A stretch of DNA of 63,668 nt, counting the filler, from Sphaeroforma arctica JP610 (taxonomy: Eukaryota): the NCBI RefSeq assembly GCF_001186125.1. It is 9 parts of 2 records of this genome, joined end to end, with 100 filler letters (N's around TTAATTAATTAA, not from the genome) between each part and the next. Parts side by side here need not be neighbours in the genome. Positions count along the whole stretch, not along the records: positions 16,196 to 33,175 come from NW_014040528.1; 8 more parts are not named here. One strand, given 5' to 3'. The translations under genes were made by a program, and so were the position numbers. Of this stretch, positions 21,950-27,335 are shown piece after piece (position 1 is the stretch's first letter; each line of letters begins with the position of its first letter). The notes under the pieces are model-generated. The model ran no database searches. It saw only the letters and a list, made by a program, of their open reading frames with translations, and was not told the origin of the DNA.

Positions 21950-24900
21950 CGTCCGAAGAAAGAGCTCGAAGGTCTATTATTTAAATATTGTCCCCGCTTC
22001 AAAACTCACTTTTTCAGAGTTATGAAGCAAAACACAACTCGAAGCTTTAGAACAATCCCTACAATCTGTTCAAGAAGAAGAAAACTAAGGAGTATTCTCC
22101 GGTCCTGGCAAATAAAGACGGCACCCGAGGAAACCTTAAGAGATACGAGCTCTCAAGGCTCACTCAACACATGGGAGAAGTCTACCACGCCAACTAAGAT
22201 AAGTAAGCTGACGGACAAGAACGCTGAACTTAAGTCTTAGTACATATTATCACCTCTTCAACTAAAATTTGTAAATGAGAATCCGGCTTTAATCGTATAT
22301 ATGGATCAGTACAGTGACAAAGCACGCCGCTTACGTGAACGACTGTACTAGAGCGTTCACGGAGTAGACTCGTAGTCAGCAAGCTAGTGGAACCGCCAAC
22401 TATGAAATCCCCTACCAGTCTATTGAAAATCAGATGCCTAGTGGTGACATAGTGGAAGCCGCAGAAGCTAAAGCCCCAGCAAGAGAGGCCAAAACCGAGC
22501 CGGTGTAGAAGTCAAACAAAACCAACCCATCTAAAAATCAAGTTTTGACGAATATGTTCAGGAACACGACACTCACCAGTGCTTGAAAGGGAACATTGTT
22601 CATGTAGAACAATAAAACACCAATTTAAGCTCTTCAGTTCCTAAAGGACCACTTCGGTTAAGCCAAGTCAACCGTGAAAGTTTATCCCAGTACGGGAGAC
22701 ATTTACATTGTATCCCCTAAGCCCACTGGCGAAAGTCACGAAGCCGACCTTCAGTTTTGGTCACAACTAAAGAGGAACCAAGAATACAATGAAGCAGGCC
22801 AGCAAAACTGAGTTTGCATAGACGAGGTTACTATGAAGATACGGCATCCGTAATATGGATGAGGTCGACTAATATGCAAAACTGATCACACAGAAGAAAA
22901 TTGACCAGGTGTTGCAAGCTCAGGTAGGGATCGTGACAATCAGAAGTTCAAGGTAATGAATAGCGAGCTTAGAAGTCGAACTAAGATGCCGACACAAAGC
23001 CGGAGTATATGAATATCCATGATCTTGAGACGCTGACACAAACTTTACAAGCATGGCATATCGATGAGCTTGAGCGATGCCGCAATTTGCCGGATGTGTA
23101 CACTGTACTGGCTAGCAACATTCCTCTTAAGTCAGGATATGCCCAGTCCAAGCATTTGATTTACATTAGTACCACAGAGCACCCTACACTACAACTTTGA
23201 GCTATACTTTGAAGATTTATGTCGACCTTCTGAGACCTGGCATAACCAGGGGTATCAAACGTTACTCGAAATGTACGTGTCGTATACGAACATCGGAAGT
23301 AACGATTGTAAAAAGTTCTATTCACCCGATCAGAGTCACAAAAGAAGTTCTATCTGACCGGTTTACGGTGGGAACAGGTAAACGAGAATATGACGGAGAG
23401 TCGTTCTGAGAATAGGGCAATGTCTAAAGAGAAAGTGTTTAATAAGAAACCGCGAGACCAAATCTACCAAGAATAAGTCGCACTTCTCCCATCAACGTGT
23501 ACCGCGTGACCTGTTAAGTCGGTGCGAGCTGATAAGAAAGCTCTTTACAAATGGGAGAAGATTTGTACTGACAACACATGCGGCTATGATATTTACCAAC
23601 TTACACCCAATGGCTACTGGAACGGCAAACACACTCCAGCTTGTTCACACTATCTCAACAAATGTGACAAGTGCAAGATGACAAATGTAATGTCACGCCA
23701 AAGGTACAGGCTGTAACATCAACCCAGGCATTAAGCTGGTATGAAAATGTTACCAGGCCCAATCCCTACAGCACAAAAGATGACGACTTTATAGACGAGT
23801 ACGAAATAAATACGGTATACTGCAACGAAAATAAAATTATCGCTTAATTGATCCCGGTTCCGAGAAAACGTGGATTGTTGATCGCTTTGCCTCAGTAAAC
23901 GATATCGAACGTAGAGCACGAACAACTCACCTATTGTAAGCAGATGAGAAGACTTCATAAAGCGGCATTACAGGTGTAAAGATCTCGTTAGCCGACGATC
24001 GCACCGTCACTACGCAAGCTGTGATAGTTAATATGTCATCCCAAAATTACAACGGTATCGTAGTCAGAATGAGTGGCCTACTTATGATAGAAAGAACAGT
24101 AGCTGTGGTACCAAATAATATGAAGCCATTAGAGGATCAATCAGGCGATAACTGTCTTAAACCTTATCAGCCCCTGTCTGACATCGTCATGGAATCAATA
24201 CCTGACTTTACAGACAAGATATTAAATGGATCTTATTATTGTAAACAAGAAAATTGAGAATACAGATTGGGCGAAGTTCCGGTTTGATGACGAATGCCTA
24301 GACAAGACTAAAGTAAATTATACTATGCTGATCCTTCAAGGAAGTATGTATCATGAATATGTAAATGAAGCGGTAGTAAAATAACAAGTAAAGAAGTGGC
24401 TAGCTGATGGGGTAATAGAAATTAATTTAAAAAAAAACAAAACAAACGCCAGTTAATCTAGCATATCTTGTAGTCAATTAATAATACTGTGACGGTTTGT
24501 TTCGAAAGGTCAGAGAATGTTTAAAAACGACTCCGATAAATAAGCTATTGCCGATTCTTCCCTCGTATAAGCGAGCTACTAAAAGGAATGGAAGGAGGCT
24601 CAGTCTTTAGCACTATATACCCTATTTATGAACCAAATCGTAGATTTTATAGTTCCACATGGAAAAGGAACAAACATCGCTTCGAAGGAGCAATGTCTGA
24701 GCTACATTCCCAACAAGCATTCTTTTAACCAGTTTTTGTAACGATGTATGCTGATATGCCCAATGTGCAGGTATATATAGACGATTTGTATGTCTTCTTT
24801 AAAACAGCAAGTCAACATGCCTTAGTTCGAAGAGATATACAGAGACTCAACGAAAAATACGTTTAGATAAGCTAGTAGAAGTATTATTTAGTAATGTGCG

Positions 24901-27335
24901 AAATACAACTCCTCAGATATCGCATAACAGGGGAAATTATTTTTAATCGCAACACCATAGAGGTAGAAACCCTTTTAGCGCACACCAACCACAGTAAGAG
25001 ATTTAGATAGTATCTATGAATTTGTAAATTACATATCAGAAGGAGTGCCACACTTAGCAGATTATCTAGAACCCTTTGGACTCTGAATATGTCATAAAGT
25101 TAAGCTAGGAGGATTTTAGATTAAGAGTACGATGATGCGTTTGGAGAATTAAAACACGCCGTACAACAAGCAACTATGATACAAGTACAAGTATGGAATA
25201 CCCTTTGGAATAGTTGCTGAAGCATCAGACTTGGCACTATGAGGCGTCCTATATCAGGTTATAGATGACAAACCTCAATATATGCAGTCCTTCAGTATAA
25301 AAGTAATGATTGCTTCACAGTTAAATTGTCGAACCGCAAAGTAATAAATTCTAGCTATAGTTACAGCAACAACGGACTTTAAAGATTTCTGTTCGGAATA
25401 GCATTTTCGCTGTTATGTGTGATCAGAAGTCCTTCAATATATGAAAGAGCTGAAGCCAGACTCTGAGTTATAGAGTAGGCGGCATGATATGGTATTAAAA
25501 TTGCACTTCAATATTAAACACCTACCTGGGATACACAATCATATACCCGAAGTGTTACCCAGAATTGTATCCGGCTATAATAAGTTGGGACGAGAGCTCC
25601 TAGCCACCGATTGGAAATGTAGTTCACTTTGGTTTGAATTAGTCCAAAAGATATTTGGACCACATGCTATGTATATGTTTATACCCGATATGTTATGCAG
25701 GTTTGTAGCCGACGTTAGTAGGTCGGTACGCGAGCTCCTAGCCATCGACTTGAAATGTACTCCACGTACATACTATAGATATGTTTGCTGTGCATCATAG
25801 AGCACACTTAAAAAAAGATTATAAACCGTTAAAACATCCTTTAGGAGATGCATTTCAAATAGATCTTTACAAATATAATGAGTAACCCACCGTGGCAGTG
25901 AACTACCTATTTATTAAACTACAGTCATATACACAAAGCTACCATATCATTGTGTTGTTCATTACGAAAATCATATCCGTGGTTCATAGAAGCTTATAAG
26001 CATGATACAAAGTGAGCCAATATATTTAAATACAGAAGTAGATACTTTTCTATATCAGGGTACCCGAGCAGTCCAAGGTCCAAACGTCTCTCTAGAAACA
26101 TACTATATAAATATGTTGTATAAGTCCTGTAGGTACGACCACATGGACCCTCTCAGAACCCCTTCTTAAAAAGGTTAAAGAGTCAGAGTTTCCACTCTGT
26201 ATTAACTTGAACGTAAACCAGTTTAAGGACAACACTGCACCTGAAGTTTGTGCACAAAAAAAAATACAATCTACTACAGATAAAACTGCTACGAAGCGCC
26301 AATCTCTGGCTCAAACCAACTTTTTTATATAGAAATATAAGATCGGAGCCGGAATTTATTCAGACACTTTTCTTAAAGGGACTTATGAAGGATATTCCTT
26401 CAGAATATACACATATAATGCGACTATTAATTAAGTCGAGTGTAGCTAATGCTTACGAGAACAATAAATAGGCCCAGATTAAAGAAAGCACGGGGGTCTG
26501 GATACACTACAGACTTAGAGAACACGCAAGTCGATTCTTTATATCCTACTTTTGTTTTGGACTAGCAGAATGAGGAAAATACCAATACATAGCTCATAAG
26601 CTGAAGTACCAGAATACAGTAGGAGCCCGCAAAGACGCCAAGCGTAATGGAATAGCGATTTTAGTGGACAGTGTATATCAGTCATGTACGACTGTGACCT
26701 CAATTAGATCAAGCACTATGGATTCGGACCTCTTAAGAGTGTGATTGAAAGGTCCCGTACCGCAGGGTCATCTTTGATCTGATTGGCCTGCCTACATCCG
26801 CGCACGCGGGCGACTGCTGTTACGTATTCTACTTATTTGATGTAGCGTCACGGTTTAACCTTCTCCGTATGATGTGTTCTGATAACGGTAGCAAGTTCTG
26901 TGATGACGTAATGTAATCCTTGGTAGTTGTATCAAGCATGTGCCACAAGAGAGATGTCCTATACCAACCACAAACAGAAGGCACAGAAAAAACACGCAAT
27001 AGAAGACTTAAGCTCTTCTTGCGTGCTGCATTGTCAGATGATGCAGATGATTGGCTGTACTAAACGGGTATAGTGCTGGTCTTGTATATAATACGGGAGC
27101 AACCCCCGTTCACTATTTTCGTGGCAGATATAATGAGCTACAAATACCTCAGAACAAGCAAAAACCTGTTCGCTATAACGTTGTATATCCTTACTTGAGA
27201 GAGACACGGAATATGACTTTACTAAAAAGGCGAATTAGATGGAACAATATCAAAACGATAGCAGAGTATCTAGTCCGTGACCGAGTAAATATCCTTCAAT
27301 AAGAAATTAAGGCCGAATATACAGGTCCACTCTAA
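21950..27335 (+). mobile_element. Ty3/gypsy-like LTR-retrotransposon, copy 2: gag-like, RT, RNase H, N6-adenine MTase, DDE integrase; heavily decayed
   Basis: QVKKWLADGVIE, LPRISELL, YIDD (24774-24785); AEASDLAL*GVLYQ, ILAIV, FNIKHLPGIHN (RNase H); DW..FGP..DMFA..GDAF..NPPW (25609-25895); VIFDLIGLPTS..FDVASRF..SDNGSKF (26764-26900); PYQPQTEG..RNRRLK; AEYTGP. LTRs not delimited. Confidence 0.88.

What the first reader, a model, noticed from the sequence alone, without database searches (positions are those of the whole stretch)
24380..27335. Ty3/gypsy-like retrotransposon with an N6-adenine DNA methyltransferase between RNase H and a DDE integrase
Seen: directly after the RNase H end (FNIKHLPGIHN..EVLPR) the pol reads DWKCSSLWFELVQKIFGPH (25609), IDMFA (25775-25789), GDAF (25844), NPPW (25884-25895), then LL...ATISLCC....PW. 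A DDE integrase follows (DLIGLPTS, DVASRF, SDNG, PQTEG, YTGP). Established: this motif series is the Dam-like MTase domain known from DIRS retrotransposons, which integrate with a tyrosine recombinase rather than a DDE integrase. Inference: this is a chimeric LTR lineage that could methylate its own cDNA or its target DNA at adenines (or N4-C). Both copies here are decayed.
Basis: partly seen in the sequence, partly recalled or inferred. Interest (0 to 1): 0.88.

Follow-up and report, generated by a model that had tools for sequence, protein, structure and literature searches.

The report
Dead gypsy retrotransposon with adenine methylase
This is a broken copy of a gypsy-type jumping gene whose polyprotein carries an adenine-methyltransferase-like domain between RNase H and integrase, a design that a 2026 preprint already described in single-celled relatives of animals, where the domain is predicted but not shown to methylate the element's own DNA.

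Summary
Window 23794-27330 aligns from protease to integrase (about 44% identity, 20 stops, 18 frameshifts) with two single-ORF proteins ordered protease-RT-RNase H-Dam-integrase. Independent contigs reproduce the copy letter for letter. A profile built only from DIRS-type methyltransferases hits it (36 bits, shuffle maximum 11). The RT is Ty3-like. The bioRxiv preprint 10.64898/2026.05.21.726589 describes such DAM-LTRs, including an ichthyosporean lineage; a Sphaeroforma arctica protein is 71% identical to one intact relative. This scan already noted the kind on other DNA (20 findings, at least 3 genomes). Activity is unproven: the preprint's E. coli assay was negative. Two small additions. 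First, less-decayed relatives end in a likely degenerate chromodomain, although the preprint says the lineage lacks one. Second, the domain is predicted to be a minimal methyltransferase core, closest to phage Dam models and, among solved structures, to the RNA enzyme PCIF1, so RNA or RNA/DNA-hybrid substrates stay open. No LTR pair was found around this copy.

The parts
23794..24230 (+). Copy A: aspartyl protease region (LIDPGSE at 23844), decayed
   Evidence: aligns to P0002 residues 20-164, which carry Asp_protease_2 E 1e-6
24380..25050 (+). Copy A: reverse transcriptase (YIDD at 24774-24785), with stops and frameshifts
   Evidence: collinear with P0001 166-400; groups with P0001/P0002 100/99
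25110..25563 (+). Copy A: Ty3-type RNase H, ending HLPGIHNHIPEVLPR
   Evidence: Pfam RT_RNaseH E 2.2e-7 on the window frame
25609..26141 (+). Copy A: Dam-like (PF05869-type) N6-adenine methyltransferase domain: DW, IDMFA, GDAF, NPPW, LCC; broken by a duplication, frameshifts and a stop
   Evidence: fold of the intact relative
25542..25765 (+). 86-bp tandem duplication (25542-25627 and 25680-25765, 77% identical) that interrupts the methyltransferase start
26142..26750 (+). Copy A: poorly conserved linker and remnant of the integrase zinc finger
   Evidence: weak alignment to P0001 726-975
26755..27332 (+). Copy A: DDE integrase core (two Asp kept, Glu position reads Lys, about 25 residues deleted) and start of the SH3-like tail, cut off after YTGP
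27326..27778 (.). 34-bp tandem array (13.4 copies) at the point where copy A ends
13919..15925 (+). Copy B: C-terminal half of the methyltransferase, linker, integrase with intact D,D,E motifs, SH3-like domain and tail; 4-6 stops, 4-5 frameshifts
   Evidence: 46-49% identity to P0001/P0002
15572..15715 (+). Copy B: likely degenerate chromodomain after the integrase SH3-like domain (absent from truncated copy A)
   Evidence: for; against
21900..23790 (+). Presumed gag region of copy A, decayed, with a Cys/His cluster near 23520-23690; assigned by position only
   Evidence: sequence; no Pfam hit

Best explanation
This is a dead copy of a multi-copy Ty3/gypsy-type retrotransposon family whose single Pol reading frame runs protease, RT, RNase H, Dam-like methyltransferase domain, integrase; it is likely a member of the published ichthyosporean DAM-LTR lineage, and in live copies the domain likely adds 6mA to the element's own reverse-transcription products. 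Shown: the domain order, the DIRS-type affinity of the domain, the Ty3 affinity of RT and RNase H, and that the domain is as conserved as RT between intact relatives. Inferred: a chromodomain-bearing Ty3 ancestor captured the domain once from a DIRS element, right behind RNase H where DIRS elements also carry it. Inferred: the small catalytic core, tethered to RT-RNase H, methylates the RNA/DNA hybrid or nascent cDNA; the host AMT1 would then maintain the mark after integration and keep the new copy in transcription-permissive chromatin (the preprint's model). Identity of the element about 0.93; mechanism about 0.45.
For: Intact single-ORF relatives P0001/P0002 with RVT_1, RT_RNaseH, Dam, rve in that order, and three more distant ones, P0121-P0123, with Dam above the curated cut-off (E 4-7e-10). 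Best solved-structure sequence hits are Ty3 Gag-Pol and Ty3 RT (E 3e-71, 9e-66). P0001 RT is 38-43% identical to Ty3-type rows and 28-29% to DIRS-type rows, while its Dam is 36-39% identical to DIRS-type Dams. DAM identity equals or exceeds RT identity (68 vs 63% to P0002; 46 vs 43% to P0121), which suggests selection. The domain begins 16 residues after the RNase H end motif, against 7 in DIRS-type rows. Relatives without Dam have only about 50 codons between RNase H and integrase (L001, L002). The model is confident (pLDDT 83) and matches phage N6-adenine methyltransferase models best (E down to 5e-10, TM 0.66-0.75); 10 of 11 aligned domains hit PHROG 111 DNA methyltransferase. S. arctica SARC_08637 is 71% identical over 155 residues to P0002. 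The preprint reports more 6mA and more expression on DAM-LTR copies than on other LTRs in S. arctica and Abeoforma. [quoted passage not shown]
Against: No activity has been shown: the preprint's E. coli expression test was negative, and Iyer et al. judged DIRS methyltransferase domains likely inactive (passage, PMC4738411). P0002 has CPPW and two DIRS-type rows have FPPF. Pfam Dam scores of P0001/P0002 are below the cut-off. AU tests do not reject a tree in which the six DAM-LTR RTs are held together with the four DIRS-type RTs (p 0.36 for RT; 0.36 for RT+RNase H), so 'nested inside Ty3' is the best tree, not a proven one. No LTR pair was found around copy A. The host is inferred from the element's relatives only; host-gene look-ups did not name it. 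The 6mA enrichment in the preprint could follow from transcription or insertion site rather than from the element's enzyme.
Confidence: 0.45

Rival explanations
1. The element is the same DAM-LTR, but the domain is a non-catalytic nucleic-acid or SAM-binding module that helps package, prime or localise the element's RNA.
For: Iyer et al. 2016 call DIRS copies likely inactive binders; negative E. coli assay; catalytic Asn replaced in P0002 and in two DIRS-type rows while the fold stays conserved; earlier scan notes report a lost catalytic motif in fungal DAM-LTRs (unchecked).
Against: NPPW is kept in copy A, P0001 and P0121-P0123, and NPPF in three of five DIRS-type rows; the D-x-F-A and DAF motifs are kept too.
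Confidence: 0.28
2. The domain is active but methylates RNA, PCIF1-style: the element's own transcript at or near the cap, or internally.
For: PCIF1/CAPAM is the top solved fold in both searches (Foldseek E 7e-4, TM 0.65-0.69; VIA Z 10.6, rmsd 3.1, 137 aligned, 2 Z units above the next row); the next rows are rRNA adenine methyltransferases; Iyer et al. place DIRS domains in the PCIF1 clade. It would explain the negative DNA assay. The preprint text never mentions PCIF1.
Against: Within one library, phage DNA N6-adenine methyltransferase models rank above the viral PCIF1-like models (named phage DNA methyltransferases from rank 2-3, PCIF1-like first at rank 20). No solved chain is a sequence relative, so PCIF1 may top the PDB list only because no phage family member is solved. 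The 151-residue domain aligns to PCIF1 233-652 with 137 residues, so the large insert of PCIF1 is missing.
Confidence: 0.15
3. The domain stays with integrase and methylates target DNA at the insertion site, opening the flanking chromatin.
For: It lies in the same polyprotein as integrase; DAM-LTR copies carry more 6mA.
Against: It abuts RNase H and is separated from integrase by about 190 poorly conserved residues, a likely cleavage region; dsDNA in E. coli was not methylated.
Confidence: 0.09
4. The arrangement is an accident: a DIRS fragment nested in a gypsy copy, or a misassembly.
For: The window is repeat-rich and gapped, and copy A is heavily broken.
Against: Five intact single-ORF proteins share the order; two diverged copies in the window share the methyltransferase-integrase junction; contigs of 4 of 4 laid runs cover copy A with no differing letter, single contigs spanning 21685-26064 or 26069 in two runs and 26040-28200 in three.
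Confidence: 0.02

Closest known systems
Ichthyosporean DAM-LTR lineage (Fernandez-Moreno et al., bioRxiv 10.64898/2026.05.21.726589; Pirum gemmata, Abeoforma whisleri, Sphaeroforma arctica)
   Same: Ty3/gypsy RT with DDE integrase plus a DIRS-derived DAM domain with an Asn-Pro-Pro triplet; the family has a close relative annotated in S. arctica.
   Different: The preprint says the lineage lacks chromodomains; the relatives here end in a likely degenerate one, and their sister group P0121-P0123 has weak Pfam chromo hits. I could not see its figures or supplements, so the exact domain order and sequences were not compared.
DIRS1-like tyrosine-recombinase retrotransposons (Piednoel et al. 2011, PMC3266345; author name recalled)
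   Same: RT-RNase H-methyltransferase order, with the domain directly behind RNase H; domain 36-39% identical to DIRS-type rows.
   Different: Protease and DDE integrase instead of a tyrosine recombinase; RT only 28-29% identical to DIRS-type RTs.
Chromodomain-bearing Ty3/gypsy elements (chromovirus-like; e.g. L001, P0015-P0030)
   Same: Nearest RTs without Dam; 16 of the 20 non-Dam rows in the surrounding clade carry PF00385.
   Different: No methyltransferase; canonical chromodomain with the WxG motif.
Phage Dam-like N6-adenine methyltransferases (PF05869, PHROG 111) and PCIF1/CAPAM
   Same: Minimal Rossmann-type N6-adenine methyltransferase fold with NPP[WFY].
   Different: Stand-alone phage enzymes, or a cap-specific RNA enzyme with a large inserted domain; here a bare core embedded in Pol.

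Membership tests
DAM-LTR retrotransposons | DAM (PF05869-type) domain within the element | tested here: met
   DIRS-only profile hits X-read copy A at 35.9 bits; Pfam Dam E 7e-6 and 8e-5 on intact relatives, under cut-off; above cut-off on P0121-P0123
DAM-LTR retrotransposons | RT of Ty3/gypsy type, not DIRS type | tested here: met
   PDB Ty3 RT E 9e-66; 38-43% vs 28-29% identity; the four DIRS-type rows form their own 100/100 clade on a long stem. Caveat: where that stem attaches is unresolved (AU p 0.36)
DAM-LTR retrotransposons | DDE integrase in the same Pol, no tyrosine recombinase | tested here: met
   rve in P0002 E 6e-9, collinear in copy A; no recombinase family in the three + frames of 21900-27352 (minus strand not scanned)
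DAM-LTR retrotransposons | Asn-Pro-Pro catalytic triplet followed by an aromatic residue | tested here: met
   NPPW at 25884-25895; P0002 deviates (CPPW)
DAM-LTR retrotransposons | Long terminal repeats and target-site duplication | tested here: inconclusive
   no flanking direct repeat in 19500-29250, but the copy is truncated at 27332 and old; no genome is held
Ichthyosporean DAM-LTR lineage | Host is an ichthyosporean and the DAM groups with that clade | tested here: inconclusive
Ichthyosporean DAM-LTR lineage | Lacks a chromodomain | tested here: inconclusive
   no Pfam chromo hit and no hit with my own profile, which agrees with the preprint's method; but atlas 0.92, profile-profile P 6e-4 and VIA Z 5.7 point to a degenerate one
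DAM-LTR retrotransposons | Raised 6mA and expression on insertions | not testable with these tools
   needs modified-base calls; reported for S. arctica and Abeoforma in the preprint
DIRS1-like elements | Tyrosine recombinase and inverted terminal repeats | tested here: not met
   DDE integrase and protease present; no long inverted repeats around copy A

The most novel reading that the evidence does not exclude
These DAM-LTRs descend from a chromovirus-type ancestor and still carry a reshaped chromodomain, and their 'Dam' is a bare PCIF1-fold core that methylates the element's own RNA or RNA/DNA hybrid instead of double-stranded DNA: a retrotransposon that writes m6A on its replication intermediate and steers integration with an altered histone reader. 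The degenerate-chromodomain part alone is about 0.7 likely.
Probability: 0.12. Interest if true: 0.7.

Novelty: already known. Interest (0 to 1): 0.18.

Why it matters
As an architecture it matters little now: the kind, and probably this lineage, was described in May 2026, and this copy is dead. What the retroelement methyltransferase does is still open, for DIRS elements as well. This locus cannot answer that, but the intact relatives P0001 (NPPW) and P0002 (CPPW) form a natural pair for assays on RNA, hybrid and single-stranded substrates, which the published dsDNA test did not cover. The likely chromodomain remnant would amend one sentence of the preprint and tie the lineage to chromovirus-type ancestors.

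Tried and rejected
No genome is held, so intact LTR-flanked copies could not be sought. Pfam on single window frames found no Dam. A viral-contig scan with the DAM alignment gave 25 pattern matches, none confirmed. The metagenome scan gave 2 loci of 25 matches, both Ty3-type relatives without Dam. The profile search of the 1.84-billion representatives never ran, so the range of the family and of the tail is not surveyed beyond the word-index searches. My HMM of 28 chromodomains did not detect the tails (2.6 and 2.0 bits, P0001 unscored; shuffles reach 11); the bridge to P0121-P0123 chromodomains gave P 0.2, with a window that missed their first strand; the second VIA look was filled by the SH3-like domain and did not test the tail. 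AU tests did not reject DAM-LTR RT joined with DIRS; the sharper test (nested with one DIRS subgroup) was lost with the script machine, as were the sensitive LTR alignment and dinucleotide counts. No solved chain is a sequence relative of the domain. No RNA holder was listed among the runs, which says nothing about expression. Host-gene look-ups did not name the host. Searches of earlier findings for this genome and for 'ichthyosporean Sphaeroforma PCIF1' were empty. N4-cytosine activity was set aside on motif and fold. The direct repeat around copy B (13733-13922, 16197-16418) was considered as an LTR pair and left open: it abuts assembly gaps and cuts into the methyltransferase.
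Full report
Observation. A search with the methyltransferase part of the second copy found 2 proteins among 41 candidates, P0001 (1376 aa) and P0002 (1400 aa), both single reading frames. Pfam orders their domains as protease (P0002), RVT_1, RT_RNaseH, Dam (E 7e-6 and 8e-5, below cut-off), Integrase_H2C2 (weak) and rve. A frameshift-aware alignment shows copy A collinear with P0001 over 23889-27297 (475 of 1083 identical, 20 stops, 18 frameshifts) and with P0002 over 23794-27327 (485 of 1116); copy B covers 13919-15925 at 46-49%. 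Copy A has an 86-bp tandem duplication in the methyltransferase start, has lost the integrase Glu and about 25 core residues, and ends at a 34-bp array.

It is not an assembly accident. Contigs from 4 of 4 laid runs reproduce copy A without a differing letter; single contigs span 21685-26064 or 26069 in two runs and 26040-28200 in three. Hundreds of shorter, diverged contigs lie on both copies (150-890 per run on copy A at 90% likeness; 763-4673 on the copy B region at 85%, which also holds other repeats). This fits a multi-copy family but is no copy number.

The domain. A profile from 5 DIRS-type domains scores P0001 and P0002 at 97 bits and X-read copy A at 35.9 bits, against a shuffle maximum of 11.0. 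'DIRS-type' is my label for P0124, P0125 and P0127-P0129, from their RT-RNase H-Dam layout without protease or integrase (P0128 is a fragment). An alignment search found 11 proteins among 6049 candidates: the two above, three further RT-RNase H-Dam-integrase proteins (P0121-P0123, Dam above cut-off), the five DIRS-type ones and Sphaeroforma arctica SARC_08637. The AlphaFold model of the P0001 domain is confident (pLDDT 83, pTM 0.82). Among predicted viral structures phage DNA N6-adenine methyltransferases rank first (E to 5e-10) and PCIF1-like proteins begin at rank 20. Among solved structures PCIF1/CAPAM is first (Z 10.6, rmsd 3.1, 137 aligned), T4 Dam is at Z 7.9. The T4 Dam match runs from its residue 8 to 259 with 106 aligned, which suggests that the core is complete and the target-recognition insert is what is missing. 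The preprint reads this differently, as a missing first catalytic half; I saw only range ends, so this is a lead.

Ancestry. The best solved-structure hits of P0001 are Ty3 Gag-Pol and Ty3 RT. Of the 120 best RT-RNase H relatives listed (1638 passed), only P0001 and P0042 have a precomputed Dam, and in P0042 it lies before the protease. In an RT tree of 127 rows (P0031, P0126, P0128 dropped for too little RT), copy A groups with P0001 and P0002 (100), these with P0121-P0123 (99), inside a 26-row clade (100) in which 16 of the 20 other rows carry a chromodomain. A careful 35-row tree agrees (100/99, 100/98, 97/100). The DAM tree gives the same two groups, joined at 83/99 against the DIRS-type rows. 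Against this: AU tests did not reject joining the six DAM-LTR RTs with the DIRS-type RTs (p 0.36), because the long DIRS stem can attach in several places. Identities still separate them: 38-43% to Ty3-type rows, 28-29% to DIRS-type rows. The domain starts 16 residues behind the RNase H end motif, 7 in DIRS-type rows, which suggests capture by a crossover just after RNase H (inference).

The tail. After the integrase SH3-like domain (best Foldseek hit Ty3 integrase), P0001, P0002 and copy B share about 50 residues at the place where relatives have a chromodomain (L001; weak Pfam chromo in P0121-P0123, E 3e-4 to 0.055). For a degenerate chromodomain: atlas first hit chromo at 0.92, 21 of 30 hits (shuffled proteins reach 0.9 in 4-10% of cases, and parts were not calibrated); profile-profile match over 50 columns, score 20.5, P 6e-4, above all 200 column shuffles (maximum 14.4); one chromodomain row on model residues 89-147 at Z 5.7, rmsd 3.2, 57 aligned, in a model of mean pLDDT 56. 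Against: no Pfam hit and no hit with my own profile. The WxG motif is gone, so methyl-lysine reading is doubtful. Copy A is cut off before this part.

What is known. I read the whole main text of bioRxiv 10.64898/2026.05.21.726589 (found). It claims the first DAM domains in non-DIRS LTR elements, defines five lineages, among them an ichthyosporean one in Pirum, Abeoforma and S. arctica that 'lacks chromodomains', reports more 6mA and expression on these copies, and found no activity in E. coli. From PMC3266345 I saw passages on the DIRS RT-RH-MT order; from PMC4738411 passages placing DIRS domains in the PCIF1 clade as likely inactive; from PMC9178792 the abstract. Other papers were seen as search listings only. 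A search for PCIF1, DIRS and methyltransferase together returned only PMC4738411, and the preprint has no mention of PCIF1. SARC_08637 is 71% identical over 155 residues to P0002, including the fast-evolving linker, so the family is present in S. arctica; that the window's host is an ichthyosporean is my inference. Earlier notes of this scan record the same kind 20 times in at least 3 other genomes (unchecked).

Mechanism and verdict. The domain is as conserved as RT between intact relatives, so it is probably used. I favour methylation of reverse-transcription intermediates by a core tethered to RT-RNase H, with host maintenance after integration (0.45), over a non-catalytic binder (0.28), an RNA-directed enzyme (0.15), target-site methylation (0.09) and accident (0.02). 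Every step after the architecture is inferred. The feature is real, the kind is already known, this copy is dead: interest 0.18.

Noticed in passing
window 13733-13922 and 16197-16418: Direct repeat (164 bp at 95%, plus a 32-bp piece) flanks copy B; the left one cuts into the methyltransferase just before PWQ, the right one follows assembly gaps. LTR, unrelated repeat or scaffolding overlap is open.
   Followed up: partly
window 27326-27778: 34-bp tandem array, 13.4 copies, begins where copy A is truncated.
   Followed up: partly
window 18445-20178, minus strand: Decayed non-LTR-like element: weak endonuclease (E 0.16) and RT (E 0.034) hits.
   Followed up: partly
window 21500-21720: Many high-depth contigs match here: another repeat just upstream of copy A; an ORF at 21231-21815 on the minus strand overlaps it.
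   Followed up: no
window 23520-23690: Cys/His-rich stretch in the presumed gag, possibly an unusual zinc-binding motif; no Pfam hit.
   Followed up: partly
window 12153-12538 and 16547-16996: Patchy inverted repeats 4-5 kb apart around copy B.
   Followed up: no
P0042: A chromovirus-type Pol with Dam in front of the protease, in a different RT clade: a separate capture.
   Followed up: partly
P0002: Intact reading frame but CPPW in place of NPPW, with the rest of the domain conserved.
   Followed up: partly
P0126 (SARC_08637): The gene model joins the end of the methyltransferase and linker to what looks by eye like the start of a DIRS-type RT: probably two nested elements.
   Followed up: no
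window 9284-9940, 46419-46976, 49647-52454, 59194-59769, 61622-63349: Host genes: C2H2 zinc finger, WNK-like kinase, MYST acetyltransferase, alkyl-sulfatase-like (labels recalled from motifs) and a GMC oxidoreductase.
   Followed up: no
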